Of a DNA stretch of 64,000 bases, positions 1-49,679 are shown one piece after another. Origin of the DNA: an uncultured Chryseobacterium sp. (GTDB taxonomy: Bacteria > Bacteroidota > Bacteroidia > UBA10329); assembly GCA_964500205.1 (NCBI GenBank), contig CAZCNS010000003.1, positions 62,606 through 126,605 on the forward strand, written 5' to 3'. The position numbers and the translations under genes are program-made. Within the stretch, counting starts at the first letter, position 1. Each line of letters starts with the position of its first letter. The notes under the pieces were generated by a model. That model did not search any database, was not told the DNA's origin, and worked only from the letters and a program-made list of their open reading frames with translations.

Positions 1-214
1 CGGGAAGCTGTTCATCCTGGAACATGACCTGCCGGAGCACCCCCTGCTATCCTACATAAGTTCCCGCCTCATGAACCTCTTTGAGAGCAAGTACTACCTC
101 GATTTCATGCAGACAGACCTGGATCAATACCTGCAAACCCTCGGGTTCAGGGTAGAGGCCAGCACCCACTATCTGGGCCACCATCTGCGGCTCATCACCC
201 TGTCGAAGCAATAA
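1..214 (+). CDS. 3' end of a hypothetical protein (partial; reading frame opens at nt 2)
   Basis: Frame 2 is open from the window edge to TAA at 212-214 (…GKLFILEHDLPEHPLLSYISSRLMNLFESKYYLDFMQTDLDQYLQTLGFRVEASTHYLGHHLRLITLSKQ*). Third codon positions are G/C-rich like the rest of the genome. The 47..307 minus-strand ORF in the track runs into the repeat region and is less plausible. Confidence 0.45.
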   Translation, partial: GKLFILEHDLPEHPLLSYISSRLMNLFESKYYLDFMQTDLDQYLQTLGFRVEASTHYLGHHLRLITLSKQ

Positions 215-263
215 CGCTGCACACGCCTCGCACCCCAACCCACCATCGACCATTTTTCTTGTT

Positions 264-660
264 AAGCGCAGCGAAATCCCGCCACTGCTGGACGGGATTG
301 CGTGCAACTCTTTCTCTGCAACTCTGTTTCTCTGTGTGAAAATCCTTTGCGTCTTCGCTTCCGCCCGTTAAGCGCAGCGAAATCCCGCCACTGTGGAATC
401 CCGCACGTGCGGGAGAAATCCCGCGACTGCGGGACGGGATTGCGAGACCCCTTCACCGCCTGCCCACACAATTTTCCATTTTCCATTCTCCATTTTCCCT
501 TCGTTGAGCGAAGCGAAATCCCGCGACTGCGGAATCCGGCACGTGCGGGAGAAATCCCGCGACTGCGGGACGGGATTGCGAGACCCCTTCACCGCCCGCC
601 CACACGATTTTCCATTTTTCTTATTGAACGCAGCGCAATCCCGCACCTGCGGGAAGCTCA
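264..660. repeat. Composite intergenic repeat block: about 3.5 nested or tandem units built on the core AGCGAAGCGAAATCCCGCGACTGCGGGA(CGGGATTGCG), flanked by TTTTCCAT-type short tandem repeats
   Basis: Units are seen directly at about 264-305, 366-500, 503-625 and 626-660. Each unit contains the hairpins TCCCGC-GACT-GCGGGA and CCCGC-ACGT-GCGGG. The same core recurs at 16663-16715 in inverse orientation and at 21400-21470. Confidence 0.7.
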
Positions 661-698
661 CCGCCTGTGGCGGTTCGGTGCGCTCAATGGCTGATTGA

Positions 699-4127: not shown

Positions 4128-4308
4128 TTCTTTCTGTTTGATAATTAGCCGATGAGCGAATTAGCGGGTGGTGGGAAGGGATGGGATGGTTCTTGCAAAG
4201 CCGCGAAGGCGTATTGTTTTTCTGCGAATGAATCACTCTTACTTTGAGCTCTTTGCGTCATCCTTTGCGTTCTCTGCGTGAAAAAAAACTTCACACCTGA
4301 TCTGCTCA

Positions 4309-5469: not shown

Positions 5470-5633
5470 GTGTTTTAAGGTGGTCAGGTTTTCAGGGAAT
5501 CAGGTTTTCAGCGGAAAGTGTTGAGGGGTTGAACGAGTGATGCTTCTCATCTGCTGAAAATCTGAATTGCTGATATGCTGAATTGCTGATATGCTGATTT
5601 GCTCGTGGCTAACGGCTTGGGGCTAATGGCTCA
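5470..5633. repeat. Short tandem repeats in the operon spacer between the TolC-like gene and the adaptor gene
   Basis: CAGGTTTTCAG is repeated twice, AATTGCTGATATGCTG twice, and GGCTAA(C/T)GGCT twice. This fills an unusually long (about 190 bp) intra-operon gap. Confidence 0.5.
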
Positions 5634-13868: not shown

Positions 13869-14024
13869 CTTTAAATTTAATTATTACCAACGGTTTGCAT
13901 ATGGCTTGTGGCGGTTTCGAAGCACTTTCTTGTCCACCGAAACCAAACTTGGCTACGGAGCAGAAACCTGGCTGGCAGCCGTTCACCCGCCACAAGCTAT
14001 ATGTGTTGTTGGCAATAGTGTTTT

Positions 14025-14420
14025 TTACAATACCTGCACTAGTTGAATATTATTTCCGCAGGTGTCATTGAGAATGGCATATTTTACATTACCCATTTCT
14101 GTCGGTTTAACGCTGAATTCGACACCAAGCTTAGTCAATCGTTCATATTCGCCATCTACGTTTTCTACATCAAATTGCGTCCAAGGAATTCCTGCCTCTT
14201 TCAATGCGTCTTGATATACTTTTGAAGGCTCAAAATGATTAGGTGCTGGTTCCAACAATAGTTCAGGTCCATCTTGCCAATCTTTTGAAACTAAGGTCAA
14301 CCACCTATTTCCACCTCCTAAAGGCTCGTCCTTCTTTTTAATAAAGCCTAATTTCTCTGTATAAAATTTAAAGGCTTGTTCTTGGTCTCGGACTGTAATA
14401 CTTATCAGTGTTACTTTCAT
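14025..14420 (-). CDS. VOC-family (glyoxalase/bleomycin-resistance fold) protein
   Basis: MKVTLISITVRDQEQAFKFYTEKLGF… and …GVEFSVKPTEMGNVKYAILNDTCGNNIQL are typical of VOC paired beta-alpha-beta-beta-beta modules. AT-rich codon usage is foreign to the flanks. Confidence 0.8.
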   Translation of the reverse strand: MKVTLISITVRDQEQAFKFYTEKLGFIKKKDEPLGGGNRWLTLVSKDWQDGPELLLEPAPNHFEPSKVYQDALKEAGIPWTQFDVENVDGEYERLTKLGVEFSVKPTEMGNVKYAILNDTCGNNIQLVQVL

Positions 14421-14591
14421 TATGTGTCTTTTTACATTATTGCCAACGGTGCGCCTAAAAGTATTGCGTTTTGAAACTACTGAGTTTTCGAGATACGGTA
14501 ACGCAGCAGAACGAAACTGAGACTGACTGACGTACCGTCCCGCGCAATAATTTTAGGCATTGTTGTGTGTAGTTGTTTCATTTCAATCCGG

Positions 14592-15317
14592 TCACTTGAA
14601 AAAGCGCATAAACTTTTTTTGCTCCAGAATATCGAACTGGTCCTTCATTGCACTGTAACTTGTCATTAGACGCCTACAGTCATCTCTGATTGCCTCCGCA
14701 GTTTGCGCAAACGTGGGTAACGTTTTTGGTGTCGTGTATAAATCTGGGTTGCTGGAAGAAGGAGAAACGCGTAAGGCCATTTCACTGTTGAAATTACTTA
14801 GTTCATTACCTAGCTTTTTGACTAGTTCATTCGTTTTCGTGTCATTGAATTTGAACTCTGCACTCAATACGGTATAGAAAAACTCTTCGATTTGATCTAT
14901 CTCGTAGCTGAAGATTGAAATGTTGTTCGATATTCTATTCATTTGATACATGAAAGTATCGTGGTTAGACAGTTTGTAGATTTCATTAATCCGCTTCAAA
15001 TCGCTCAGGTAAAGGTTTCCGTAGTGGTTAAAAATTTTGGCGCCAAGTGGAATAATGGCACCTATCACAATCATGAATACCCCTAGAAACGTCAGAATAT
15101 TATTCTCTAGTTCAATAGTCTCAGCCAACTCAGGTCTAATTAGAATTGCGATGTATGGAAAGACATTACTAAAACCGAGAATTGAAATGCCACCCCCTAT
15201 GAAACCTAAACTGATTCTGGAGATTACTCGTCCTTTTAAGTAGGCTTGAAATAGGTCCAGTCCTTTGCTAATTAGGTCACGTGTTTCTTTGTCCATTAGT
15301 ATTTCTGTTAAATGCAA
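14592..15317 (-). CDS. Hypothetical membrane protein (two N-proximal TM helices plus a roughly 140-aa cytoplasmic domain)
   Basis: Hydrophobic helices ISRISLGFIGGGISILGFSNVFPYIAILI and ILTFLGVFMIVIGAIIPLGAKIF. No recognisable catalytic motif. AT-rich. Confidence 0.6.
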   Translation of the reverse strand: MHLTEILMDKETRDLISKGLDLFQAYLKGRVISRISLGFIGGGISILGFSNVFPYIAILIRPELAETIELENNILTFLGVFMIVIGAIIPLGAKIFNHYGNLYLSDLKRINEIYKLSNHDTFMYQMNRISNNISIFSYEIDQIEEFFYTVLSAEFKFNDTKTNELVKKLGNELSNFNSEMALRVSPSSSNPDLYTTPKTLPTFAQTAEAIRDDCRRLMTSYSAMKDQFDILEQKKFMRFFK

Positions 15318-15407
15318 GTTTTATAAATAAGTCATATATGAAAGGTGCCGCTTTTATCATGGTTGTTGCGTGTACTTGGTTTGATTTCAAAAATCAAAGT
15401 ACAGGAA

Positions 15408-16262
15408 TCAATGCTGCCTTTTTTCGATTTCCATTATTTGATTTTCGAAACCACGCAGGTCAGCATGTTGCCAATTCATCAATTCAATCTGTAAGGAGTC
15501 AAATTTTAGCAACGGCCGTTGTCCAAGGACTAAAAACTTATCGGGTTTTCCATTTTCGTCATGTATCTGAATTAAGCATTCTTCAATATTTTTCTTCTCA
15601 AATTTTCGCACCAAAACTGAATACTTTGTAATGCCTTCATGATTGATATAAGGTACTGTGATTTCCACTATTGACTTGAAAATTCTTCTCGTCCCTGAGA
15701 CCGAACCACGTGCGAAATGGAAGCCTTTTGGCTTCTTCCTGTTATTCTTGTCAGACTTAGGATATAATGTGTGAACAATCTTAGTGCCTTTGTATGTCAG
15801 TAGTTTATATTTCGCTGTGCTACCGTCTTTGTGTTTATAGTGGGCGACAAACAACTCAAACTCTTCAGGACGATGGTTGTTCTCAATGTCTAAATTGTCT
15901 TCAGAATAAATGGCGTCTGCTATTCTTGCGTAATCCAGTATTGGGATTGAATCGGTTCTGAACCTACTTGGCTCTTGAAGTTTCTTTCTGGTATTTCCAG
16001 ATGCTTCATTTGAATCAATCCAATTGAAAGATTCTGACCAAAATTCATGTCGGGCATGAATATGTGTGAATCCGGTATGCTCGTTACCCTTTACGAAAAC
16101 CAGTTCCTTTACTGGCGAGATATTCCAAATTGTTTTATGTCCAGGACCAAAAAGATTAATGACATTTTGATTCTTTAATACTGGATTCAGACGAGCAAAC
16201 TCCTCAATTTCCTGAATTTCTGCCTTTGTAAGAAGGATTTCAGATGCAGCGGCCATTTCCAA
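15408..16262 (-). CDS. Hypothetical soluble protein with a His-cluster (HTGFTHIHARHEF), 284 aa
   Basis: Clean AT-rich ORF directly upstream of, and co-oriented with, the 2-TM gene. No family recognised. Confidence 0.6.
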   Translation of the reverse strand: MEMAAASEILLTKAEIQEIEEFARLNPVLKNQNVINLFGPGHKTIWNISPVKELVFVKGNEHTGFTHIHARHEFWSESFNWIDSNEASGNTRKKLQEPSRFRTDSIPILDYARIADAIYSEDNLDIENNHRPEEFELFVAHYKHKDGSTAKYKLLTYKGTKIVHTLYPKSDKNNRKKPKGFHFARGSVSGTRRIFKSIVEITVPYINHEGITKYSVLVRKFEKKNIEECLIQIHDENGKPDKFLVLGQRPLLKFDSLQIELMNWQHADLRGFENQIMEIEKRQH

Positions 16263-16616
16263 TTACACACAACGATTGGCTAAAGATACCTGGTTATCCT
16301 TAGCCGACTCTGTCGATTCAGGTTAAACGTTTGTAGTTGAGTTGATTGATGCTGAATGTCCGTTTTAGCGGACTGGTGATGTCAGGCGAATTCTTTGAGC
16401 TGGCAGGTGCGTAGATGGCGGTTGTTTTTAAGCTGGTAAGGTCGAAGAACTGTGGTACGTAGTGTGTCTGTTCTCCCTTGTCCGCGAAGTGGGGGGCAAA
16501 GCAATCTCCGAACCAATAAAGGTTGCTGTTGCTCTATCATCTCCGCATCCTATGGCTTTGTTCCTTTGGTCAGAGGCAAATCTATGACATAGAACATTAG
16601 GTTGGGCGAGGGGGGG

Positions 16617-16800
16617 GCTTGGTAATTAAAAATTAAGAATTAAAAATTAAGAATTGGGGGGGCGCAGTCGCGGGATTTTGCTTCGATTAGCGCAGTCGCG
16701 GGATTCAACGGGCGGGTAGATGGCTTCGGTGGTTCCTCCCTCGCAATGACGGGGCGGTCGTCCCTCCCTCGCAATGACGGGGCGGGGCCGCAATCCCTCG
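16617..16800. repeat. Second locus of the dispersed composite repeat (inverse orientation) plus a 26-bp tandem duplication
   Basis: (AAAAATTAAGAATT)x2, then CGCAGTCGCGGGATTTTGCTTCG…CGCAGTCGCGGGATT, which is the reverse complement of the locus-1 core. CCTCCCTCGCAATGACGGGGCGG occurs twice (16738-16790). Confidence 0.6.
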
Positions 16801-16839: not shown

Positions 16840-19800
16840 TCACTGGAATTTACCGATGACCACGGCTACGAGATTGCAGTACACGTAGTAGCCCGTGCCG
16901 GCTCCCACGTGCCAATAGCCCTGAAAGGTGACCGTGCCATCGGCAGTGGCCCTGAAGAGGCCGGTGCTGTGCCCCCCGCTCCAGTCGGTGCCATTGGAGG
17001 TAATCCAGTTTGATGGCAGCACCCAGGTTCCCGTTCCGCTGGAATTGAGTACGCGCATGTAGGTCGTGTTGACAATGGAGTTCGAGAGGTTGCACGCGCA
17101 GTCCACTTTCACCAGGTCCTCATTCTGCACTGTGATAGTGGTACTCAGGTCCGCACCCGTGAAGACCGAGGTGGTGGAAGTAGTGGAACCCACCACGCTC
17201 GACTCGTCCGCAGCGAAAGTGGCCACCCCTCTCACTTTGCCGTTCACATCAAGCTTTGCCGTGGGTGCGGTGATGCCGATGCCGACCCTGTCGTTGGTTG
17301 CATCCACTGACAAAGTGGAGCCGTCAACATTGAAGACGTCCACACCATTGCCTGTAAAGCTGAGCTTGTTGGTGGCAGAAAGCCCAGAAACGGTCGTGGC
17401 CTGAGTAAGCGCACCTCCCAGACGGACGGTGGCCGGGGCTGTTTCCGTCAGGCCGTTCTCTACCGTGATGATTCCTGTAGGGTCGCTCCATGTCGGTGCC
17501 CCCGCCCCGTTGCTGCGCAGCAACTGACCAGATGTGCCGGCTGCGGTAAAGGCGTAGGCCGACCCTGTGCCGTAAGCCAGCCCCCCGTTTGTAGGGGCTG
17601 CGTTTGAGTTTGTTCCCCCGTTGGCGATGGGCAGTATTCCTGTTACCTCTGCCGAGGCCAGACCAATGGCTCCAGCGGTGAACCCGGAGCCGTTGCCCTT
17701 GACCGGGCCGTTGAGCGTGGTGGTCACGGCAATGGTGCCACTTCCTGTCACCGGAGAGCTTCCGACCGAGAGGCCCGATGGCATTGTGAGGCCCACGGAG
17801 GTCACCGTGCCTACGTTAGCGGTGTTGATGTTCGATGCGGTCACCACTCCGGCTGGGCTTATGGTGAGTAGGCGGTCCTGACCAGAGCCGTTCAATGTGG
17901 GAAGGGTAAAGACGCCTGCTTGCGAAATGCGCATTCGTTCTATAAACGAGTTGCTTACCGACCCGGTCTGCAATATGATGTCTCCACCGCTGTTTGCAGC
18001 ACTGAGCTGATTGGTTCCGGAGCGCAGCAGCAGGTCTCCACCTGTCGCAGTGCCAGTGAGGTTGTAGCCGGCTCCGGCCTCCAACACCAGGTCGCCTCCG
18101 GAGCGCGCGCCACTGTCAGAGGAGGCATCGCCTGCCTTGACCGACAATGCGGAGCCGTCTGAGCTGCCCACGGCTTTCTGCAGGGTGATGTTCTTTGCAC
18201 CACCGCGCGAGAGCAGTACGTTGCCGCTCACATGAAGCCGTTCCAGAGGCGCAGACTCGCCAATGCCTACATTGGCCCCATTGCCCAGCACAACGCTGTT
18301 GCTTGCGCCCACCACAGCATTGGAACCTATGGCCGTTGCGTTGGTGAGGTTGTTCACTGAGGCATCGGCATTGATGCCCAGAAAAGTGTTTTGCGACCCG
18401 GTAGTGTTGAAATCGCCCGCGGCATCGCCCATGGCGATGTTGCCACTGCCTGTGGTGTTGTTGTACAGGGCCAGATAGCCCAAGGCCACATTGCTGTTGC
18501 CCGTGGTGTTGAATAGCATGGCATCCTTGCCTATGGCGGTGTTCCGGATGCCTTGTGTATTGTCGCGCAAGGCATCCTTGCCCATAGCAGTGTTGTCGAG
18601 TCCGGTGGTATTGCTATACATGGCACCAGACCCAAGCGCACTGTTGAAGTTGCCCGTGGTATTGTTGCGCAAGGCATCCCGGCCCATGGCGGTATTGTTG
18701 GATCCTGTGGTGTTGCTGACCAACGCCAGAACGCCTATGGCCGCATTGTTGAAGCCTGATGTGTTCACACGGAGTGCATCCTTTCCAATGGCGGTGTTCT
18801 GCCCGCCTGTGGTGTTGGTGCGCAGTGCGTCTCTGCCCACGGCCGTGTTGTCATTCCCGGTCGTATTGCTCACCAATGCCTGAAAGCCCAAGGCCGCGTT
18901 ACTGCTACCTGTGGTGTTGGACAGCATGGCATCCTTACCGATGGCGGTGTTCTGCCCGCCCGTGGTATTGTCGCGCAGTGCGTCCCTGCCCGCTGCCGTG
19001 TTGTCGCTTCCTGTTGTATTGCTTTGCAAGGCCCGCGATCCGAGTGCACTGTTGAATATGCCTGTGGTATTACTGCTCATGGCATTCCTACCCACGGCCG
19101 TATTGTCATTCCCGGTGGTGTTGTTGAGCAACGCCTGAAAGCCGTTGGCCACATTGCTCACACCTGTGGTGTTCGACAGGAGAGCATCCTTGCCGATGGC
19201 GGTGTTTTGAATGCCTGTGGTGTTGGCACGCAGTGCGTCCTTGCCCACGGCCGTGTTGTCGTTCCCGGTGGTATTGCTGCGCATGGCTTCCCGTCCCATG
19301 GCGGTGTTGTTGGCCCCGGTGGTGTTGGAAAGAAGGGTATTGTAGCCCACACCGGTGCTTGAGTTGGAGGTGTTCACGTTCCCCGCCTGATAGCCGAGAA
19401 AAACCTCGCCCGTGCTGGCCACCCTTCCTGCCTTCTGGTTGTTCACGCGGATGTTGAAGGGTATATTGTCTGTGGTACCTATGAAATGTGTGCCGTCCAC
19501 TGTGCTCGCATTTCCACTGAGCGACCAAGCTTCAGCAGTGACCACTGCAGTGGGGTCTGTCCATGTCATCCTTCCGTTGGCGTCAGAGACGGGGACGAAA
19601 CCAGTGGCCTGATTGCCGTCCACCATGCGGATGTTGCCTACCACATGCAGCCTGTCGCTGGGTGCCGAGATGCCGATGCCCACATTGCCGTTCTCATTAA
19701 TGGTCAATGCAGTGTTGGTGATCCCTGTCGCATAGTCATTGGACGTGCCGAGCATCAGCTTTGACCCGAAGCCATTGCTCTGTGCAGCGATCCGAGCGAT

Positions 19801-20400
19801 GGGGTTCGTTGCATCCGCGAAAATGAAGTCCATGGCTGCAAATCCTCCATTGGTGGTGGTCCCCTCCATGCTGAACATGCCTCTTGTGCTTCCTGTGAAG
19901 CTGCCGATCTGGTTTCCATTTACATGCAACCTCGACAATGGAACCGCAGCACCTATGGCCACATTCCCGGTGCGGTTGATGGCTCCGGTGGAATTGGCGG
20001 GGCCGTTCCAAGTGGGGTCAAGCTCTGTGAAGCTGGTGAGATACCCTACGGTGGCATGGTTCCCCCAACCGAATGCGGTGTTCCAGTTGGTGATGTCCGT
20101 GTTGGTTATCCCGAACGATGGGCTGGCGGAAAATATCGGGTCTGTCTCCACCGTAGAGGCAAATGAGGTCCAGCTGCTACCGTTCCATCCTTGGAACTGC
20201 CCCAAGGAGCCATTCCATCGGATGGTGCCCGCCCCGCCCGTGGGGGCACCTGCACCGATATCGGAGCTTAGGCGAAGTCGGCCAGCAATGTCGAGTTTCT
20301 CCTGCGGGGCAGGCACGCCAACACCCACGTTCTGAGCATGGGCCGCTGTTAAAGAAAGAAGCAATGTGGACAGTAGTACAGGTCTAAAGGACATCATCAT
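16840..20400 (-). CDS. Secreted giant protein (1186 aa) with a long run of YadA-like (Hep_Hag) 7-11-residue repeats and a tail-fibre-like C-terminal region
   Basis: Signal peptide MMMSFRPVLLSTLLLSLTAAHA. There are more than 40 repeats of the form NTAIGxxALxxNTTGxxNTAxG. The C-terminal has a G(I/V)LP(I/V)ANGGT motif (GILPIANGGTNS) common in phage tail-fibre and tail-fibre-like proteins. Confidence 0.85.
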   Translation of the reverse strand: MMMSFRPVLLSTLLLSLTAAHAQNVGVGVPAPQEKLDIAGRLRLSSDIGAGAPTGGAGTIRWNGSLGQFQGWNGSSWTSFASTVETDPIFSASPSFGITNTDITNWNTAFGWGNHATVGYLTSFTELDPTWNGPANSTGAINRTGNVAIGAAVPLSRLHVNGNQIGSFTGSTRGMFSMEGTTTNGGFAAMDFIFADATNPIARIAAQSNGFGSKLMLGTSNDYATGITNTALTINENGNVGIGISAPSDRLHVVGNIRMVDGNQATGFVPVSDANGRMTWTDPTAVVTAEAWSLSGNASTVDGTHFIGTTDNIPFNIRVNNQKAGRVASTGEVFLGYQAGNVNTSNSSTGVGYNTLLSNTTGANNTAMGREAMRSNTTGNDNTAVGKDALRANTTGIQNTAIGKDALLSNTTGVSNVANGFQALLNNTTGNDNTAVGRNAMSSNTTGIFNSALGSRALQSNTTGSDNTAAGRDALRDNTTGGQNTAIGKDAMLSNTTGSSNAALGFQALVSNTTGNDNTAVGRDALRTNTTGGQNTAIGKDALRVNTSGFNNAAIGVLALVSNTTGSNNTAMGRDALRNNTTGNFNSALGSGAMYSNTTGLDNTAMGKDALRDNTQGIRNTAIGKDAMLFNTTGNSNVALGYLALYNNTTGSGNIAMGDAAGDFNTTGSQNTFLGINADASVNNLTNATAIGSNAVVGASNSVVLGNGANVGIGESAPLERLHVSGNVLLSRGGAKNITLQKAVGSSDGSALSVKAGDASSDSGARSGGDLVLEAGAGYNLTGTATGGDLLLRSGTNQLSAANSGGDIILQTGSVSNSFIERMRISQAGVFTLPTLNGSGQDRLLTISPAGVVTASNINTANVGTVTSVGLTMPSGLSVGSSPVTGSGTIAVTTTLNGPVKGNGSGFTAGAIGLASAEVTGILPIANGGTNSNAAPTNGGLAYGTGSAYAFTAAGTSGQLLRSNGAGAPTWSDPTGIITVENGLTETAPATVRLGGALTQATTVSGLSATNKLSFTGNGVDVFNVDGSTLSVDATNDRVGIGITAPTAKLDVNGKVRGVATFAADESSVVGSTTSTTSVFTGADLSTTITVQNEDLVKVDCACNLSNSIVNTTYMRVLNSSGTGTWVLPSNWITSNGTDWSGGHSTGLFRATADGTVTFQGYWHVGAGTGYYVYCNLVAVVIGKFQ

Positions 20401-21339: not shown

Positions 21340-21560
21340 ATCTCCGACCTGCTTGTCCGTCCGTCCGCCTCAGGCGGACGGACAGGTGGGCGGGCGGGAT
21401 TTTTTTGATTGTTGAGCGAAGCGAAATCCCGCCCAAGCGGGAAGCGAAGCGAAATCCCGCGACTGCGGGAAGATTGCTGATTGCTAATTGCTGATTGACG
21501 AGGGAGGGATTGACAATTAAAAGTTACCAATTACCAATTACCAATTAACAATTGGGGGTG
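21340..21560. repeat. Third locus of the dispersed composite repeat, with a GC hairpin and T-run
   Basis: Hairpin CCGTCCGTCCGCC-TCAG-GCGGACGGACAGG, then GGGCGGGCGGGATTTTTTT, then AGCGAAGCGAAATCCCGC…GCGAAATCCCGCGACTGCGGGA, then (GATTGCT)x3-4 and (CCAATTA)x3. Confidence 0.6.
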
Positions 21561-21665: not shown

Positions 21666-23174
21666 ATGAACTTCGACCAGACCTTCAAGAACATTGATGA
21701 CGTGCTCCGCAGGGAGACCGACTCCGAACTCGACTACATAGAGCAGACCTCGTGGATACTCTTCCTTCGCTACTTGGACGAACTGGAGCAGGAGCGCGCA
21801 GATGAGGCCGAGCTGCGGGGCAACGAATACCGTTTCCTCCTGGCCGAGGAATACCGCTGGGGCGCATGGGCCATGCCCAAGGATGCCAAAGGGGCGTACG
21901 ATTTCAAGTCCGCCCTGACGGGGCCCGACCTCATCGAGTTTGTCAATGGCAAGCTGCTGCCCTACCTGCGCACCTTCAAAGAGGCGCACAGCGACAACCC
22001 CCGCACCCTCGAATACAAGGTGGGCGAGATATTCGGAGAGCTGAAGAACAAGCTGGGCAGCGGCTACAACCTGCGCGAGATACTGGAGGCCATAGACACC
22101 CTGCCCCTCAAGAGCAGCAAGGACCGCCACGAGCTCAGCTTCCTCTACGAGAGCCGCATCCGCAACATGGGCAACGCGGGCCGCAACGGAGGCCAGTACT
22201 ACACCCCCCGCCCCCTCGTGCGCGCCATGATTCAGGTGACCGACCCCCGCATAGGCGAGACCGTCTATGATGGGGCCGCAGGCTCTGCGGGCTTCCTCTG
22301 CGAGGCATACGAGTACATGGCCCCGCAGACCGAGCGCCACCCCACGCTATCAAGCACCGAGGCCCTGCGCGTGCTGCAAGAGGAGACCCTCTATGGCAAG
22401 GAGGTGAAGAACCTCGCCTACATCATCGGCATCATGAACATGATACTGCATGGCGTGGAGGCCCCCAACCTCATCCATATCAACACGCTGGCCGCACACG
22501 ACAGTCAGGTGCAGGAGCGCGACCGCTATGATGTCATCCTCGCCAATCCGCCCTTTGGCAGCAAGGAGCGGCCCGAGGTGCAGCAGGCATTCGCCATCAA
22601 GACCAGCGAGACGGCCTTCCTCTTCCTTGAGCACTTCATCCGCTATCTGAAGACGGGAGGCCGCGCGGCCATCGTCATCAAGAACACCTTTCTGAGTAAC
22701 ACCGACAATGCGGCCGTGAGCCTGCGCAAGCACCTGCTGGAGACCTGCAACCTCCACACCGTGCTCGACATGCCGCAGGGCACCTTCCTCGGGGCGGGCG
22801 TCAAGACCGTCATCCTCTTCTTCACCAAGGGCGAGCCTACCCGCAACATCTGGTACTACCAGCTGAACCCCGGCCGCAACATGGGCAAGACCAACCCCCT
22901 CAACGACAGCGACCTGGCCGAGTTCATCGAACTCCAGAAGACCCGCCCAGAGACCGAGTGCAGTTGGAAAGTTGGGGTCACTTCGAGTGACGCTGACGAA
23001 GGAGGCGTTGTATCGAGAAGCCCCAACGCCACCAACGGCTTCGACCTCTCCGTAAAGAACCCCAACACCCCCGAAGAGGCACCCCTGCGCAGCCCACAGG
23101 AGATACTGGACGAGATGACCGCCTTGGACGAAGAGACCAAGGAACTGTTGGACGGGATAAGGGAGTTGCTATGA
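21666..23174 (+). CDS. hsdM: Type I restriction-modification N6-adenine DNA methyltransferase subunit
   Basis: HsdM N-terminal domain and catalytic motif IV NPPF (…VILANPPFGSKERPE…). It overlaps the specificity subunit by ATGA. Confidence 0.95.
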   Translation: MNFDQTFKNIDDVLRRETDSELDYIEQTSWILFLRYLDELEQERADEAELRGNEYRFLLAEEYRWGAWAMPKDAKGAYDFKSALTGPDLIEFVNGKLLPYLRTFKEAHSDNPRTLEYKVGEIFGELKNKLGSGYNLREILEAIDTLPLKSSKDRHELSFLYESRIRNMGNAGRNGGQYYTPRPLVRAMIQVTDPRIGETVYDGAAGSAGFLCEAYEYMAPQTERHPTLSSTEALRVLQEETLYGKEVKNLAYIIGIMNMILHGVEAPNLIHINTLAAHDSQVQERDRYDVILANPPFGSKERPEVQQAFAIKTSETAFLFLEHFIRYLKTGGRAAIVIKNTFLSNTDNAAVSLRKHLLETCNLHTVLDMPQGTFLGAGVKTVILFFTKGEPTRNIWYYQLNPGRNMGKTNPLNDSDLAEFIELQKTRPETECSWKVGVTSSDADEGGVVSRSPNATNGFDLSVKNPNTPEEAPLRSPQEILDEMTALDEETKELLDGIRELL

Positions 23175-24322
23175 GTACTAACAAATGGACTCCATTCCGA
23201 AATGTCGGAAATGTTCAGTCGGGAGCTGGATTTCCAATTGTTTATCAAGGCCTAACGGAAGGTGAATACCCCTTCTACAAGGTTGGAGACATGAATTCAG
23301 AAGGCAACGAGATATTCATGTCTCAAGCCAACCATTACATATCTGATGAAGTTCGCAGGGAACTTGGAGCTAAAGTAATTCCACCAGACAGTATAATCTT
23401 CCCCAAAGTTGGCGGGGCCATATTGACTAACAAAAAAAGGATTACAACTCTTCCATGCTGTATTGACAACAACTTGATGTCAATCTGGGTCGACCCAGCA
23501 GCATATTCCAAAAAGTACTTCTACTATTTCTTCAATTCGATTGATTTATTTGAGTTGTCTAATAAAGCTGGGTTGCCATCAATTACGCAAACAGCTCTTT
23601 ACGAACTGAAAGTTCCCATCCCACCCCTCCCCGAACAGGAGCGCATCGTTGCCAAGTTGGATGCCGCCTTTGCGGCCATCGATAAGGCCAAGGCCAATGT
23701 GGAGCGCAACCTGCACAATGCCAAGGAGCTTTTTCAGAGCAAGCTCAATGAGGTGTTTGAAAATTTGGAATCACAATATGAAAGGACTCCTATAGCTTCT
23801 GTTTGCAAAGAGATATTTGCTGGAGGTGATGCCCCACGTGAAAACTTCTCCGAAGCCAGAACAGATAAATTTCACATTCCAATAATTGCCAATGCCGTTA
23901 AAGACCATGGTCTTTACGGATATACAGATTTGGTGAGAGTTTCGGAGCCATCAATTACCATAGCAGCACGCGGAAGTGGTACTGGACATACTGAAATCAG
24001 GTTGGAGCCATTTTTCCCAATTGTCAGGTTAATTGTCCTGATTCCAAAGAGGGAGATGATTGACCTTTCCTTTTTCTGTTACTCAATCAAAAATTTGGAG
24101 ATTTTGAGAAGCGGTTCTGCAATACCGCAGTTGACTGTGCCCATGATTAAAGGTTACTCGCTTGCTGTGCCACCTTTGGAAACTCAAGAAGTGTTAGTTG
24201 AAATGCTTAACTCGTTGGAGGGCAGTTTGCAGTCCCTTGAAACCTATTATACCCGCAAACTAACAGAATTGGAAACCTTGAAGAAGTCGGTTTTGGAGCG
24301 GGCTTTTAGGGGGGAGATTTGA
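23171..24322 (+). CDS. hsdS: Type I R-M specificity subunit (two target-recognition domains)
   Basis: AT-rich variable TRDs separated by the conserved central helix (…LPPLPEQERIVAKLDAAFAAIDKAKANVERNLHNAKELFQSKLNEVF…), and the conserved distal helix …LETQEVLVEMLNSLEGSLQSLETYYTRKLTELETLKKSVLERAFRGEI*. Confidence 0.9.
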   Translation: MSTNKWTPFRNVGNVQSGAGFPIVYQGLTEGEYPFYKVGDMNSEGNEIFMSQANHYISDEVRRELGAKVIPPDSIIFPKVGGAILTNKKRITTLPCCIDNNLMSIWVDPAAYSKKYFYYFFNSIDLFELSNKAGLPSITQTALYELKVPIPPLPEQERIVAKLDAAFAAIDKAKANVERNLHNAKELFQSKLNEVFENLESQYERTPIASVCKEIFAGGDAPRENFSEARTDKFHIPIIANAVKDHGLYGYTDLVRVSEPSITIAARGSGTGHTEIRLEPFFPIVRLIVLIPKREMIDLSFFCYSIKNLEILRSGSAIPQLTVPMIKGYSLAVPPLETQEVLVEMLNSLEGSLQSLETYYTRKLTELETLKKSVLERAFRGEI

Positions 24323-24359
24323 AAAGAGAAAATGACATAGTGTTCATTTGCAGCCTCTT

Positions 24360-24463
24360 TGTGGGACACGTAGGACATAGCGTGGGACGTGGCGGAGTGG
24401 GAGCCTCCATCGTGCAGTTCCACGGAGCGTCCCAAGCGTCCCACAGCAAATAGCCCACAGCCT
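24360..24463. mobile_element. MITE/PATE-like about 100-bp element, copy A (terminal inverted repeats TGTGGGAC…GTCCCACA)
   Basis: GTGGGACACGTAGGACATAGCGTGGGACGTGGCGGAGTGG … CACGGAGCGTCCCAAGCGTCCCACAGC. Arms are mutually complementary (CGTGGGACG vs CGTCCCACG). Near-identical copies lie at 24543-24640 and 26324-26433. Confidence 0.5.
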
Positions 24464-24524
24464 CAAACTAACAGAATTGGAAACCTTGAAGTAGTCGGTT
24501 TTGGAGCGGGCTTTTAGGGGGGAG
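24464..24524 (+). pseudogene. Orphan duplicate of the hsdS 3' end (…KLTELETLK*SVLERAFRGEL), copy 2 of 3
   Basis: A roughly 60-bp direct repeat of 24262-24322 with an internal stop (TAG). A third copy at 24653-24716 runs into the KAP NTPase reading frame. Confidence 0.6.
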
Positions 24525-24542
24525 CTATGAAAATAAAAATGG

Positions 24543-24640
24543 AGGACACGTAGGGCATAGCGTGGGAAGTGGCGGAGTGGTGGTCACCATCGTGCAGTCC
24601 CACGGAACGTCCCAAGCGTCCCACAGCATGAAGCCCACAG
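24543..24640. mobile_element. MITE/PATE-like element, copy B
   Basis: GGACACGTAGGGCATAGCGTGGGAAGTGGCGGAGTGG…CACGGAACGTCCCAAGCGTCCCACAGC. Confidence 0.5.
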
Positions 24641-24736
24641 CAAACCCACTACACCCGCAAACTAACAGAACTTGAAACCTTGAAGAAGTCGGTTTTGGAG
24701 CGGGCTTGTAGGGGGGGATATGAAACAGGAAGCGAT

Positions 24737-26116
24737 ATGAAAGGAAGACACAATGACTTGATAATCGACCTCAATGAACCTTTCAAAGAGTGCAAACTCA
24801 ATCGAAAGCGGAATGCGGAGATTCTAACCGAGGTGGTGCAGAGGTACAAGGATGGTTTTGTCCTTGCGATAAACAACCCTTGGGGTGCGGGTAAGACCAC
24901 CTTCGTGAAGATGTGGCAGCAGCACTTGGAGAATGAACATTTCCGTACCGTCTATTTTAACGCTTGGGAGAACGACCTTGGCAATGCCATTTTCCCTGCC
25001 CTGCTCTCTGAATTGGAAGGAATTGACCGCGCACATAGAGATGGCGAGAATCAACAGAATCCAAGGTTTGCTGACGTATTAGACAAGGCCGCCCCGATTG
25101 CAAAATCTTTAATGCCCGCAGTGGCAAAGATTCTGTTTGACAGATTTGCAGGCAAGGGTGCTGCATCGGAACTAGCAGAGGCAATTGCAGCGGGTGGTGC
25201 AGAGGTACTGGCAGAAGGCATCAAAGACTACAGGGCACAAAAGCAAGGACTTGGTGAGTTCAAAAAATCGCTAACCGAGTTTGTGGAGACCTACACTTCT
25301 TATGGCAGGCCCATCATCTTCATTATAGACGAGCTTGACCGCTGCCGTCCCGACTATGCGGTCTCCGTGCTAGAACACATCAAGCACCTTTTCTCTATAC
25401 GCAGAGTAGTTTTCGTGCTTTCCATAGACAAGGTGCAATTGGGTCACGCCATTTGTGGGGTGTATGGCAGTGACAACTTCGATTCCAATGAGTACTTGAG
25501 AAGGTTTATTGATTTGGAGTACAATCTGCCCGTTCCGAACTACACTGAAATCACGAAATACTTTTTCAACTACTTCGGATTTGAAGATGTTGCATTGCTA
25601 AAAAACAAACCAAATGCATGGTTTTCTGATGAGGAACTGTTTGACTTTATGGGGCAACGCTTCAGACATCTGAATTGGAATATTCGAAGAATAGAGAAAC
25701 TGATGGCACGCTGCAGAGTTACCATGAGTCTTGTTGCACCAGATGAATTTCATCTCATGCCGTTCTACTTGTACCTATCTTTCCTTTACGAATTAGATGG
25801 TGAATTCGCTGGCAAGCTGACATCCGGTAAACTCACTATTACAGAAGTCAACTCCAAATTGAAGAGTCCTGAACTGCTGTTTGGGGCGAGTTTTGAAGCA
25901 CCATTTTGGCAGAAGTGCTTCGCATTTATTTTATTATCTATATCCGATAATTTTACTGACATCTCGAAACTAAATCCAATAAATGCTATCAAACAACAAC
26001 CGCTATCTGCGTTTTCTTCAGTTGTACATGCGGGATCATATGGTCAGCTATCGCTTCCCGGAATAGTTGAAATAGGCAGGAGGTTAAGACATTCCTATAG
26101 TTTTGAAGCAGCTTAA
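24737..26116 (+). CDS. KAP-family P-loop NTPase inserted between hsdS and hsdR (ORF in track begins at TTG 24680 inside the hsdS-end repeat; ATG at 24737 preferred)
   Basis: Walker A NNPWGAGKTTFVKMW, the KAP-typical YFNAWEND motif, and Walker B IIFIIDELDRCRPDY. AT-rich relative to hsdM and hsdR. Confidence 0.85.
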   Translation: MKGRHNDLIIDLNEPFKECKLNRKRNAEILTEVVQRYKDGFVLAINNPWGAGKTTFVKMWQQHLENEHFRTVYFNAWENDLGNAIFPALLSELEGIDRAHRDGENQQNPRFADVLDKAAPIAKSLMPAVAKILFDRFAGKGAASELAEAIAAGGAEVLAEGIKDYRAQKQGLGEFKKSLTEFVETYTSYGRPIIFIIDELDRCRPDYAVSVLEHIKHLFSIRRVVFVLSIDKVQLGHAICGVYGSDNFDSNEYLRRFIDLEYNLPVPNYTEITKYFFNYFGFEDVALLKNKPNAWFSDEELFDFMGQRFRHLNWNIRRIEKLMARCRVTMSLVAPDEFHLMPFYLYLSFLYELDGEFAGKLTSGKLTITEVNSKLKSPELLFGASFEAPFWQKCFAFILLSISDNFTDISKLNPINAIKQQPLSAFSSVVHAGSYGQLSLPGIVEIGRRLRHSYSFEAA

Positions 26117-26118
26117 TC

Positions 26119-26178
26119 AATGAACGAATCCGAAACCCGCGCCCATTTCATCGCCCCCGCCCTGATAGCCAAGGGATA
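26119..26178 (+). pseudogene. Truncated, diverged copy of the hsdR 5' end (MNESETRAHFIAPALIAKG*)
   Basis: 20 codons, about 80% identical to the true hsdR start at 27077 (VNESNTRAHYIDPALIAKGW…), with TAG where hsdR has TGG. Confidence 0.5.
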
Positions 26179-26323
26179 GGGGCTAATAACAGCCATTGAA
26201 CCGAGCGGTTGAAAACCCCTTTCAGGAGGGCAGCATGTTCAGGTTCCGCTGTTCCACGGCACGGCCCATAAACCCCACAGAAAACCCCACCCGTAGAAAC
26301 CATGGCGCACTCACCGTCTTTTT

Positions 26324-26433
26324 TGTGGGACACGTAGGACATGACGTGGGACGTGGCGGAGTGGCAAGCACCTTCGGCCGTCCTGCGGAGCGTCCCATGC
26401 AGTCCCACAAGTCCCACAGCACAAAGCCCACAG
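26324..26433. mobile_element. MITE/PATE-like element, copy C
   Basis: TGTGGGACACGTAGGACATGACGTGGGACGTGGCGGAGTGG…GGAGCGTCCCATGCAGTCCCACAAGTCCCACAGC. Confidence 0.5.
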
Positions 26434-26462
26434 AACATCCAACCAACCTAACATATTGACAA

Positions 26463-27047: not shown

Positions 27048-27076
27048 CTGCCAGCAAATGAAACCGCCCCGTTGAC

Positions 27077-45271: not shown

Positions 45272-45286
45272 TGCTTCCTAACTGTG

Positions 45287-49546: not shown

Positions 49547-49679
49547 AAAAAGGTAAACCGATCCAGCTTTGAGGGCTTATGTTCCACTTTAGATGCCTAA
49601 AGTATCAGACTTACCAAAGGGCCCATCAAAAAAACGGCTCCTTTTCAGAGCCGCTTTCGAAAACGTGAAAGTTTCATGG

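What the first reader, a model, noticed from the sequence alone, without database searches (positions are those of the whole stretch)
264..660. Dispersed composite repeat family: GC-rich double-hairpin core plus AT-rich 7-14-mer tandem arrays (three or more loci in 64 kb)
Core AGCGAAGCGAAATCCCGCGACTGCGGGA(CGGGATTGCG), with stem-loops TCCCGC-GACT-GCGGGA and CCCGC-ACGT-GCGGG. It occurs as about 3.5 units at 264-660, inverted at 16663-16715, and at 21400-21470. Each locus also carries a different short tandem array: (TTTTCCAT)x3, (AAAAATTAAGAATT)x2, and (GATTGCT)x4 with (CCAATTA)x3. Related CTTTGCGT-type repeats lie in the operon leader at 4240-4290. All copies are intergenic and often at gene 3' ends or at boundaries of foreign DNA (the island and the R-M locus). 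This is REP/BIME-like behaviour, but the architecture is distinctive and, as far as I know, not a described family.
Basis: seen in the sequence. Interest (0 to 1): 0.55.

Follow-up and report, generated by a model that had tools for sequence, protein, structure and literature searches.

The report
Tiny mobile hairpin repeat in Bacteroidia
The repeat is real: it is a roughly 31-base two-hairpin DNA module, found in many uncultured Bacteroidia, that appears to have been inserted precisely and without target duplication into intergenic DNA, much like REP elements and cyanobacterial "small dispersed repeats".

Summary
The core GCGAAATCCCGC occurs 9 times in the window against 0.45 expected, at three intergenic loci.

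The unit is about 31 nt: TTGAGCG(A/C)AGCGAAA-TCCCGC-loop-GCGGGR. It is not private to this genome. The upstream TTG and the 3' arm were not in the search pattern. Member contigs range from 33 to 58% GC and come from at least two orders of Bacteroidia.

Two filled/empty comparisons show a precise 29-31-nt insertion with no target duplication. The 5' flank prefers A-W-G and the 3' flank shows no preference. Orientation is independent of neighbouring genes, and no neighbouring gene recurs.

The AT-rich 7-8-mer arrays are not part of the element. They are a general feature of spacers in these genomes, and cores often sit inside them, in register.

A strain about 96-98% identical in the flanking DNA has a rearranged cluster and an extra 2.3-kb segment. 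Its left breakpoint lies inside the core's 5' module and its right one at the edge of the core cluster.

No Rfam family, plasmid, phage or literature match was found. Best reading: a new family of very small, non-autonomous mobile repeats (REP/SDR-like). The mobilising enzyme is unknown.

The parts
214..698 (+). Spacer between convergent genes (methyltransferase 3' end and AcrB-type pump 3' end), filled with the repeat cluster.
   Evidence: ORF map. Homology to L171.
262..302 (+). Core copy A: TTAAGCGCAGCGAAATCCCGC-CACT-GCTGGA, plus the lineage-specific tail CGGGATTGCG.
   Evidence: Covariance-model hit 257-296, 46.3 bits. Sequence read.
303..335 (+). Short arrays (TGCAACTCTTTCTC x2; TTTCTCTG x3).
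368..444 (+). Core copy B. The 20-nt hairpin sub-module is amplified within it (AATCCCGC-ACGT-GCGGGA at 397-414; GAAATCCCGC-GACT-GCGGGA at 415-434), followed by the tail at 435-444.
   Evidence: Model hits 363-402 and 415-434. TRF period 20.
471..498 (+). Heptamer array ATTTTCC x4. This is the reverse complement of the GGAAAAT / RRAATG-type arrays seen in other members.
   Evidence: TRF. Comparison with metagenome arrays.
504..580 (+). Core copy C (consensus TTGAGCGAAGCGAAATCCCGC-GACT-GCGGAA) with three tandem 20-nt hairpin sub-modules and the tail.
   Evidence: Model hits 499-538 and 551-570. TRF 515-570, period 20, x3. Part of the 92% repeat D1.
624..654 (+). Core copy D: TTGAACGCAGCGCAATCCCGC-ACCT-GCGGGA. 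Its 5' end can also pair with GCGCTCAAT at 681-689.
   Evidence: Model hit 619-658, 42.5 bits. Fold.
660..674 (-). Separate GC hairpin (accgcc-tgt-ggcggt) next to the AcrB stop codon. Conserved in L171 and not part of the family.
16624..16655 (.). Array AATTAAAAATTAAG x2.3. An independent assembly of the same strain breaks here.
   Evidence: TRF. L174 ends inside this array.
16663..16708 (-). Two degenerate core copies lacking the 3' arm (GAAGCAAAATCCCGCGACTGCG and TTGAATCCCGCGACTGCGC).
   Evidence: Not scored as full copies.
16727..16785 (-). 28-nt unit x2.1 carrying CCCCGTCATTGCGAGGGAGG. It belongs to a different small-repeat motif (GTCATTGCGAG...) that also precedes cores in L092, L064 and L153/L157.
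   Evidence: TRF. Motif search.
21412..21442 (+). Full consensus core: TTGAGCGAAGCGAAATCCCGC-CCAA-GCGGGA.
   Evidence: Model hit 21407-21446, 57.5 bits, the best in the window.
21443..21470 (+). Abutting second copy lacking the TTG: AGCGAAGCGAAATCCCGC-GACT-GCGGGA.
   Evidence: TRF period 28.
21472..21553 (+). Heptamer arrays GATTGCT x3.7 and TTACCAA x4.3, downstream of the cores and about 110 nt upstream of hsdM.
   Evidence: TRF. Pfam on hsdM.
4240..4290 (+). CYTTGCGT x3 motif in the AcrB/MFP spacer. The same motif sits beside cores at 344-352 and inside the 75-nt composite units of L171.
5472..5631 (+). 8- and 7-mer arrays (GTTTTCAG, CTGANNTG, CTNNNGG) with no core. They show that the arrays exist independently of cores.
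   Evidence: TRF. Sequence.

Best explanation
The core is a member of a widespread family of very small (about 29-31 nt), non-autonomous, apparently mobile DNA repeats in Bacteroidia.

Structure of the unit:
- A conserved asymmetric 5' module, TTGAGCG(A/C)AGCGAAA. I propose, by inference, that it folds as a GNA-triloop mini-hairpin with tandem G.A pairs closed by TT:AA.
- A GC hairpin, TCCCGC-N3-5-GCGGGR, with a free loop.

How copies arise. Shown: a copy is an exact insertion of this unit, with no terminal inverted repeats and no target-site duplication. Shown: the insertion point prefers a position immediately 3' of A-W-G on one strand. Shown: copies occur in hairpin loops, tRNA pseudo-fragments, gene ends and, above all, the 7-8-mer tandem arrays that litter spacers in these genomes. 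Inferred: many of those arrays offer an A-W-G target in every unit, which would make them landing pads.

What happens after insertion. Shown: the unit or its 20-nt hairpin sub-module amplifies in tandem, decays, attracts IS elements, and lies at indel breakpoints.

Mechanism. Inferred, at about 0.3 on its own: mobilisation in trans on single-stranded DNA by an HUH/Y1 (RAYT- or IS200/IS605-like) enzyme. The asymmetry, the lack of duplication and the one-sided target preference are the signature of that chemistry.

The 264-660 locus is a local cluster of four such units plus amplified hairpins.
For: 1. Non-random and multi-locus in the window.

2. Family breadth. The scan with AGCGMAGCGAAATCCCGC returned 120 contigs and was capped at that limit. 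Of these, 72 (strict) to 89 (relaxed) have TTG immediately upstream (T 80/84, T 83/84, G 82/84) and a complementary 3' arm after a 2-14-nt loop. Neither feature was in the search pattern. Member GC runs 0.33-0.58 with median 0.42.

3. At least two orders. Best AcrB hits for the window are named MAG Flavobacteriales bacterium. L140's Pgi hits are named Bacteroidales or Marinilabiliales.

4. Filled versus empty sites.
- L143: the intact tRNA-Cys reads ...cggaagg|gaatcgaaccc. Two upstream pseudo-fragments read ...cggaagg[TTGAGCG..GCGGGA, 31 nt]gaatcgaa.
- L168 carries the conserved "subfamily A" element uninterrupted, where L112 and seven others carry [TTGAGCGAAGCGAAATCCCGCCCCCGGGG].
- Neither case shows a duplication.

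5. Joined flanks of the cores in L160, L135, L122 and L089 match continuous array sequence in register.

6. Flank preference in 43 de-duplicated flanks: -3 A 72%, -2 W 91%, -1 G 74%. The 3' flank is featureless.

7. No orientation bias relative to neighbouring genes (upstream 37 same, 31 opposite; downstream 30 same, 33 opposite). No recurrent neighbouring gene.

8. Patchy distribution and fast turnover.
- The 99%-AcrB strain L171 has 3 cores in a different arrangement.
- The 89% relative L182 has one diverged copy, which is absent from its orthologue L181.
- About 80 kb from the 85-92% relatives L172, L173, L181 and L183 has none.

9. L171's copies carry G5:C11 changed to A5:T11 in the proposed mini-hairpin. 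Window copy D shows the intermediate A.C.

10. An IS4-like IS and its MITE abut core-type hairpins at the same position in three cases. REPs are known IS targets (PMC3733652).

11. L171 has an extra 2.3 kb carrying a SulP gene. The left breakpoint lies inside the core's 5' module (TTAAGCGCAGCG) and the right one at the edge of L171's core cluster, next to a ccatttttcttgTT.AA.GCAG direct repeat.
Against: - No mobilising gene was found. No IS200/RAYT-like ORF occurs in about 0.9 Mb of held DNA.
- Orientation does not track GC skew (33:21, p = 0.18), so the lagging-strand bias expected for HUH transposition is not seen.
- There are only two clean filled/empty comparisons, and no transposition intermediate.
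- The A-W-G preference is much looser than IS608 or ISDra2 target specificity.
- Such strong sequence conservation across orders is unusual for REPs. It could instead reflect a host function.
- The 5' mini-hairpin is not predicted by nearest-neighbour folding. It rests on one compensatory change and on published behaviour of d(GCGNAGC) recalled from memory.
Confidence: 0.6

Rival explanations
1. The module is a structured RNA. It could be an independent small RNA, or an mRNA stabilising or processing hairpin bound by a conserved protein. Its sequence conservation would then reflect that function rather than mobility.
For: - The 22-nt 5' module is highly conserved across contigs of 33-58% GC.
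- The 3' arm ends in G in 26 of 72 GCGGGR arms. This gives a T/U.G wobble on the top strand only.
- There is a possible GNA-loop / tandem G.A motif.
- Sometimes the module lies inside larger conserved, apparently structured non-coding elements, subfamilies A and B.
Against: - No Rfam family matches, even at E<=10.
- Orientation is random with respect to neighbouring genes.
- There is no T-run after the hairpin and no consistent promoter-like context.
- It is found inside a tRNA-Ser 5' half and in tRNA-Cys pseudo-fragments.
- It is present or absent at otherwise conserved sites.
- Copies decay freely, as at window 16663-16708.
- The conservation of the 18-nt core is partly imposed by the search pattern.
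Confidence: 0.15
2. The module is a host DNA-level signal. It could be a protein-binding or single-strand structural site, for example nucleoid organisation like BIMEs with IHF and gyrase, or a priming or replication-pausing mini-hairpin. On this view it was duplicated by ordinary recombination.
For: - It is restricted to intergenic DNA.
- It is conserved across taxa.
- GCGAAGC-type mini-hairpins are unusually stable in ssDNA (own knowledge, Hirao et al.).
- Clusters sit between convergent genes in the window and in L140.
Against: - Close relatives lack it in about 80 kb, so it is dispensable.
- Density is low and patchy, mostly one copy per locus of about 7 kb on average.
- There is no preference for convergent spacers overall: 19% convergent, 15% divergent, 66% co-directional.
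- Ordinary recombination does not explain exact 31-nt insertions.
Confidence: 0.1
3. There is no transposition. The pattern comes from local replication slippage or template switching at stable hairpins plus gene conversion between spacers. The hairpin and the short arrays would both be mutational by-products.
For: - Tandem amplification of the unit and of the 20-nt sub-module is evident: window 397-434 and 515-570; L089 period 39 x3; L077 period 144 x4.
- Arrays and cores co-occur (odds ratio 3.2).
- The cluster is rearranged between near-identical strains.
Against: - Slippage cannot place the same 22-nt non-palindromic sequence at unlinked sites in at least 72 contigs from different orders.
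- It cannot insert that sequence exactly into a tRNA fragment or into the subfamily-A element.
- Arrays exist without cores.
Confidence: 0.05
4. The core is a fragment or end of a larger transposable element (an IS terminal repeat or MITE), or a CRISPR-like or ToxI-like RNA array.
For: - Subfamily B looks like a MITE of about 300 bp whose 14-bp inverted ends contain TTGAGCG.
- Window copy D pairs with a downstream GCGCTCAAT.
- L089 has three 39-nt tandem units.
Against: - Downstream CGCTCA is not enriched (0.29 per kb against 0.33 background).
- No transposase or other gene recurs nearby.
- The minimal inserted unit is 29-31 nt with no inverted ends.
- The "spacers" are 8-16-nt repeats, not unique sequences.
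- No cas or toxN-like neighbour recurs in the neighbour clustering.
Confidence: 0.04

Closest known systems
Cyanobacterial small dispersed repeats (SDRs; Elhai et al. 2008, Genome Res 18:1484). The paper is not held in the library. It is cited in PMC3116915 and PMC2884548, and the details here are from my own memory.
   Same: - Very small, tens of nucleotides, far below MITE size.
- Hairpin-forming, dispersed in intergenic DNA.
- Filled/empty polymorphism with exact boundaries and no target duplication.
- Nested or tandem copies.
- Frequent location inside heptamer tandem repeats and other hairpins.
- No known mobilising enzyme.
   Different: - Different phylum (Bacteroidota, not Nostocales) and unrelated sequence.
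- Slightly longer unit (29-31 nt against 21-27 nt).
- A conserved non-palindromic 5' module.
- A one-sided A-W-G flank preference.
- Conserved across at least two orders.
REP / BIME elements and REPINs mobilised by RAYT (Y1/HUH) transposases (PMC3733652, PMC3116915)
   Same: - A 20-40-nt intergenic hairpin repeat.
- Occurs singly and in clusters.
- Strain-variable.
- Can supply stop codons to upstream ORFs (TGA within TTGAGCG in L053, L148, L087 and L170).
- IS elements abut it, as they target REPs.
- Some families insert within other palindromes.
   Different: - No GTAG or CGTC tag at either end.
- Clusters are head-to-tail, not in alternating or inverted REPIN orientation.
- No bias toward convergent spacers or gene 3' ends.
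- No RAYT gene was seen.
- The sequence is conserved across orders, whereas REP families are usually specific to a species or genus.
IS200/IS605-family transposition and its miniature derivatives (PATEs)
   Same: - No terminal inverted repeats and no target-site duplication.
- A strongly asymmetric element with hairpin(s).
- Insertion immediately 3' of a short sequence on one strand.
   Different: - Ten-fold smaller than known PATEs, with no separate left and right ends.
- The target preference (A-W-G) is loose.
- No TnpA was found and no replication-strand bias was detected.
STRR heptamer tandem repeats of cyanobacteria (Mazel et al. 1990; own knowledge). This comparison is for the AT-rich arrays only.
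   Same: - Intergenic tandem arrays of 7-8-nt units.
- Unit sequence differs between loci.
- Widespread in spacers, function unknown.
   Different: - Different phylum.
- Units here commonly end in (A/T)TG (GAGTNNTG, NNNGAATG, CTGANNTG).
- In these data they serve as frequent sites of core insertion.

Membership tests
REP (GTAG/CGTC-tagged palindromic repeats) | Short (20-40 bp) imperfect palindrome repeated in extragenic DNA. | tested here: met
   The unit is 29-31 nt with a 5-6-bp GC hairpin, and all window copies are intergenic. However, two-thirds of the unit is non-palindromic.
REP (GTAG/CGTC-tagged palindromic repeats) | GTAG or CGTC tetranucleotide at one end (PMC3733652). | tested here: not met
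   The ends are TTGA... and ...GGGR. Neither tag appears in the consensus.
REP (GTAG/CGTC-tagged palindromic repeats) | Linked RAYT (Y1 transposase) gene flanked by the repeat (a REPtron). | tested here: inconclusive
No neighbouring gene recurs. The full source genome was not available.
REP (GTAG/CGTC-tagged palindromic repeats) | BIME/REPIN organisation, with pairs in inverted orientation. | tested here: not met
   Clusters are direct: window 257-658 all on the plus strand, and L077, L089 and L143 are tandem.
REP (GTAG/CGTC-tagged palindromic repeats) | High copy number per genome. | not testable with these tools
   Only 64 kb of the source genome is available (3 loci).
Small dispersed repeats (SDR-type very small mobile elements) | Exact filled/empty polymorphism without target duplication. 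| tested here: met
   L143 tRNA-Cys fragments against the intact gene. L112 and seven others against L168.
Small dispersed repeats (SDR-type very small mobile elements) | Location within short tandem (heptamer) repeats, hairpins and other repeats. | tested here: met
   - 39% of core-bearing spacers have arrays, against 17% of other spacers.
- Insertions are in register with the arrays.
- The core sits in the loop of a flanking stem in subfamily D.
- Insertions are nested in L146.
Small dispersed repeats (SDR-type very small mobile elements) | Sequence membership in SDR1-8 of Nostocales. | not tested
   The paper and its sequences are not held. The phylum is different, so homology is not expected.
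MITE | Terminal inverted repeats and a target-site duplication. | tested here: not met
   No inverted ends and no downstream CGCTCA enrichment. No duplication at the two empty sites.
IS200/IS605-derived miniature element | Insertion 3' of a fixed tetra- or pentanucleotide, without duplication. | tested here: inconclusive
   No duplication was seen, so that part is met. The 5' flank is A-W-G at 72%, 91% and 74%, with a featureless 3' flank. This is a preference, not a fixed site.
Known RNA families (Rfam 15) | A match to a curated covariance model. | tested here: not met
   - No matches in the whole window at gathering score.
- No matches for 150-760 at E<=10.
- Nothing overlapping the cores in 20 loci.
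Intrinsic terminator | A GC hairpin followed by a T-run, oriented with the upstream gene. | tested here: not met
   The 3' flank is compositionally featureless. Orientation relative to the upstream gene is 37 same and 31 opposite.
CRISPR array / type III toxin-antitoxin RNA repeats | Regular repeats with unique spacers and cas genes, or tandem RNA repeats upstream of a toxN-type gene. | tested here: not met
   The intervening sequence is 8-16-nt tandem repeat, or there is none. No gene recurs next to the cores.

The most novel reading that the evidence does not exclude
The 31-nt unit is an active, cross-order mini-transposon, among the smallest mobile DNAs known.
- It moves as single-stranded DNA by a duplication-free cut-and-insert reaction next to A-W-G.
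- The reaction is catalysed by a still unidentified, widely conserved Bacteroidia enzyme.
- The conserved 5' GNA mini-hairpin module is that enzyme's recognition site.
- The ubiquitous 7-8-mer spacer arrays act as its landing pads.

Because the core is conserved across orders, the enzyme could be found by phylogenetic profiling. That would also bear on the unsolved question of how SDR-type elements move.
Probability: 0.25. Interest if true: 0.7.

Novelty: new member of a known kind. Interest (0 to 1): 0.48.

Why it matters
- Very small dispersed repeats (REPs, SDRs) are common, but how the smallest ones move is unsolved.
- This family gives a sharply defined unit with exact boundaries, a one-sided flank preference, and unusually broad conservation across Bacteroidia. 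Those features make a search for the mobilising factor tractable.
- The repeats break metagenome assemblies. An independent assembly of the same strain ends inside the array next to locus 2.
- They also lie at strain-level indel breakpoints, here at the edges of a 2.3-kb segment that carries a sulfate-permease gene.
- If the family is only another selfish repeat, the practical value is for annotation: masking, avoiding spurious ORFs, and strain typing.

Tried and rejected
- Genome-collection scan with GAAATCCCGCGACTGCGG. The GACT loop is lineage-specific, so all 46 hits were single chance matches in unrelated phyla.
- Exact look-up of the window's AcrB protein: not on record.
- Rfam at gathering and permissive thresholds: nothing.
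- Literature search by sequence strings: only primer coincidences. The Elhai 2008 paper is not held.
- blastn of the consensus against plasmids and phages, and an IMG/VR pattern scan: no true members. There was only an odd Firmicutes-like look-alike (L048, L102).
- Terminal-inverted-repeat idea (TTGAGCG...CGCTCAA): not enriched.
- Neighbour-gene clustering for a linked enzyme, and phmmer with IS200 TnpA: negative.
- Orientation relative to genes and to GC skew: no bias.
- Terminator reading: no T-run and no orientation preference.
- Taxonomy by a T9SS C-terminal motif regex: only 5 loci matched, so it was uninformative.
- Nearest-neighbour folding of the 5' module: it predicts no structure, so the mini-hairpin stays a proposal.
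- TSD-like reading of identical flanks (for example L159, L074): rejected. The flanks are parts of a continuous pre-existing array.
Full report
**Observation.**

The region 214-698 is the spacer between two convergent genes. One is the 3' end of a UbiE-type methyltransferase, identified by 97.6% nucleotide identity to L171 10005-10211. The other is the 3' end of a 1142-aa AcrB-type pump.

The 12-mer GCGAAATCCCGC, allowing one mismatch, occurs 9 times in the window against 0.45 expected. None of 100 shuffles reached 9.

A covariance model was built from metagenome copies plus three of the window's own locus-1 copies and run without filters. It finds:
- full copies at 257-296, 363-402, 499-538 and 619-658, and at 21407-21446;
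- partial hairpin copies at 415-434, 551-570 and 21451-21470;
- nothing else in the 64 kb.

The minus-strand locus 16663-16708 holds two decayed copies without a 3' arm. The observation therefore stands.

**What the repeated unit is.**

In 72 (strict definition) to 89 (relaxed) of them, the 18-mer is preceded by TTG (T 80/84, T 83/84, G 82/84; usually GTTG). After a loop of mostly 3-4 nt it is followed by GCGGGA or GCGGGG. These flanking features were not in the pattern, so they are independent evidence of a family. The remaining hits are GC-rich and lack both features, as expected for chance matches.

The family-wide unit is TTGAGCG(A/C)AGCGAAA-TCCCGC-loop-GCGGGR. The longer "double hairpin" units at 264-660 are a local elaboration. 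The 20-nt sub-module GAAATCCCGC-NNNN-GCGGGA is tandemly amplified (TRF period 20 at 397-434 and 515-570). This lineage also adds a tail, CGGGATTGCG, which is present in the sister strain too.

**Distribution.**

- Member contigs have 33-58% GC, with a median of 42%.
- The window's AcrB has close relatives named MAG Flavobacteriales bacterium.
- The Pgi next to the core in L140 has relatives named Bacteroidales or Marinilabiliales. The family therefore spans at least two orders of Bacteroidia.
- It is absent from the plasmid and phage collections and from IMG/VR, apart from one doubtful look-alike.
- My single genome-collection scan used a loop variant specific to this lineage and returned only chance hits. 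Copy number per genome and isolate hosts remain unknown.

**Context.**

- Cores are nearly always intergenic.
- Orientation is unrelated to the flanking genes. Relative to the upstream gene it is 37 same and 31 opposite; relative to the downstream gene it is 30 and 33.
- No gene family recurs nearby.
- No Rfam family matches the window or overlaps cores in 20 loci.
- There is no T-run after the hairpin.

These results argue against a terminator, a leader, or a cis-element of a particular operon.

**Evidence for insertion.**

There are two filled/empty comparisons.
- In L143 an intact tRNA-Cys reads ...cggaagg|gaatcgaaccc. Two upstream pseudo-fragments of its 3' end read ...cggaagg[TTGAGCG...GCGGGA]gaatcgaa. 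This is an exact 31-nt insertion with no duplication.
- A conserved non-coding element of about 250 nt ("subfamily A") carries the core in eight contigs. In L168 it is uninterrupted...gccgataatacccc|atctcctttgttgtcaagggttcgc. In L112 it reads ...gccgataaatgcgcc[29 nt]atctcccttgttgtcaagggttcgc.

Where cores sit in short tandem arrays, joining the two flanks restores the array in register. L160 gives 62 nt at 92%, L135 gives 44 nt at 95%, and L122 and L089 behave the same way. The identical flanks are therefore array sequence, not target duplications.

In L146 a tRNA-Ser 5' half and a partial duplicate of it carry several CCCGC-type hairpins.

Across 43 de-duplicated copies the 5' flank prefers A (72%), W (91%) and G (74%). 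The 3' flank shows no preference. In the tRNA case these flank bases belong to the target.

**The arrays.**

Arrays of 7-8-mers are common in spacers of these genomes with or without cores.
- They occur at window 5472-5631 with no core.
- They occur in the orthologous L177 and L180 spacers, which have a TAATYGT array but no core where L140 has both.
- They occur in 17% of ordinary ORF-free spacers, against 39% of core-bearing spacers. The odds ratio is 3.2 (p = 7e-5), but per kilobase the rates are only 0.74 against 0.48.

Many array units end in (A/T)TG, so they repeat the preferred flank. This offers a simple reason, by inference, for the association. The arrays resemble cyanobacterial STRR heptamers (own knowledge).

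**Turnover.**

- L171 shares 96-98% nucleotide identity in the flanks and a 99%-identical AcrB. It has a 401-nt spacer next to AcrB (called gene ends 7160 and 7562), with three cores in a different order.
- L171 also has about 2.3 kb that the window lacks: a SulP gene and seven 75-nt units of the form cctttgcgtgaacccAAGCGCAGCGccctttgtgcg. The left breakpoint falls inside the core's 5' module, and the right one at the edge of L171's core cluster. A direct repeat, ccatttttcttgTT.AA.GCAG, is present at both sides.
- L182, an 89% relative, has one diverged copy with GATTG arrays at the MatE 3' end. It is absent from the orthologue L181.
- About 80 kb from four other relatives has none.
- An independent assembly of the same strain, L174 (100% identical), terminates inside the array at locus 2.

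**Structure.**

Hairpin 2 (TCCCGC/GCGGGR) is evident and is the only structure that nearest-neighbour folding predicts.

For the 5' module I propose T1T2G3A4G5C6-G7N8A9-G10C11G12A13A14A15. The pairs would be two T:A pairs, tandem G.A/A.G, and G:C and C:G around a GNA triloop. This is the d(GCGNAGC) mini-hairpin known to be exceptionally stable (own knowledge).

It would explain the conserved upstream TTG. The A/C-variable position is the loop N, but that variation was allowed by my search pattern, so it is not evidence. Support is thin. L171's three copies have G5:C11 changed to A5:T11, and window copy D has the intermediate A.C.

**Mechanism.**

Shown:
- an exact, asymmetric, duplication-free insertion of a 29-31-nt unit;
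- a one-sided flank preference;
- local tandem amplification and decay;
- patchy phylogenetic distribution;
- IS elements abutting the hairpin. An IS4-like element (L163 2227-3835) and its 265-bp MITE (L089) abut core-type hairpins at the same position, CCGC-nnnn|GCG[C/T]ATAGCC.

Inferred: mobilisation in trans on single-stranded DNA by an HUH/Y1-type enzyme, as for IS200/IS605 and as proposed for REPs.

No such gene was found (a weak test), and there is no bias relative to GC skew. The enzyme therefore remains open.

**Comparison with known kinds.**

The closest analogues are the cyanobacterial SDRs and REP/BIME elements. The family fails the REP tag criterion (GTAG or CGTC; PMC3733652) and the inverted REPIN arrangement. 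It lacks MITE ends and duplication.

I file it as a new family within the known class of very small dispersed hairpin repeats. It is not a member of REP proper.

**Verdict.**

This is a real, widespread and apparently undescribed family. Interest is moderate. It would rise if the cross-order conservation leads to the mobilising enzyme.

Noticed in passing
window 16727-16785 (minus strand); L092, L095, L064, L153/L157, L002: A second small-repeat motif, GTCATT[G/C/T]CGAG...(GAAGCAATC), occurs next to cores. It also occurs in an unrelated Alphaproteobacteria MAG as GTCATTGCGAGCGCAGCGAAGCGATCTC, which resembles the core's 5' module. In L092 the core looks inserted between CGACGAAG and CAATCTC. 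This may be a wider superfamily of tiny GCGAAGC-containing repeats.
   Followed up: partly
L076, L079, L104, L112, L121, L128, L136, L149 and L168 (about 250 nt around the core): A conserved, apparently structured non-coding element ("subfamily A": ...ccgggaaagccgat...gttgccgagggttcgc...caccctcgg...) is found in different contigs. It has no Rfam match. It could be an unknown ncRNA or a non-autonomous element.
   Followed up: partly
L056, L086, L090, L108, L120, L142, L150, L158: "Subfamily B" is a MITE-like element of about 300 bp with 14-bp inverted ends (ACCTAAATTGAGCG ... CGCTGAGTTTAGGT). Every recovered copy contains a core about 35 nt inside the left end.
   Followed up: partly
L163 2227-3835; L089 1796-2060 and from 14336: An IS4-like element (DDE_Tnp_1, apparently frameshifted) and a 265-bp derivative abut core-type hairpins at the same position (CCGC-nnnn|GCG[C/T]ATAGCC). 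This suggests hairpin-targeted insertion.
   Followed up: partly
L146 1120-1390 (minus strand): A tRNA-Ser(TGA) gene has a D-arm region interrupted by a CCCGC-aagg-GCGGG hairpin and a full core. An upstream partial duplicate of the tRNA carries two more hairpins. ARAGORN calls a tRNA that starts inside the core.
   Followed up: partly
L171 9350-9870: Seven tandem 75-nt units combine the core's 5' module (AAGCGCAGCG) with CCTTTGTGCG decamers. The region is called as a 175-aa gene with no Pfam hit, which is probably a spurious ORF.
   Followed up: partly
window 14000-16300: A low-GC island (38% against 56%) holds two ORFs (241 and 284 aa) with no Pfam match. It lies directly beside repeat locus 2.
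   Followed up: no
window 21666-29620: A type I restriction-modification locus (hsdM, hsdS, hsdR) has a KAP-family P-loop NTPase gene (24680-26116) inserted between hsdS and hsdR. GC drops to 44-48% across 23-26 kb.
   Followed up: no
window 16840-20400: A 1186-aa protein has no Pfam hit in the direct scan. Its relatives are named tail-fiber-domain or trimeric-autotransporter-like proteins. The only close relative on record is the identical copy in L174.
   Followed up: partly
window 40406-58098: A cluster of giant genes (1621, 1419 and 1613 aa) lies with PorP/SprF and a PKD/CHU_C protein. It looks like a type IX secretion cargo locus.
   Followed up: no
L048 (IMG/VR) and L102: A Firmicutes-like prophage region contains AGCGCAGCGAAATCCCGCGAAATGCAGCGAAATCACC followed by short CTCAT-type repeats. 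It resembles the core's 5' module but has no hairpin. Its relationship to the family is unclear.
   Followed up: no
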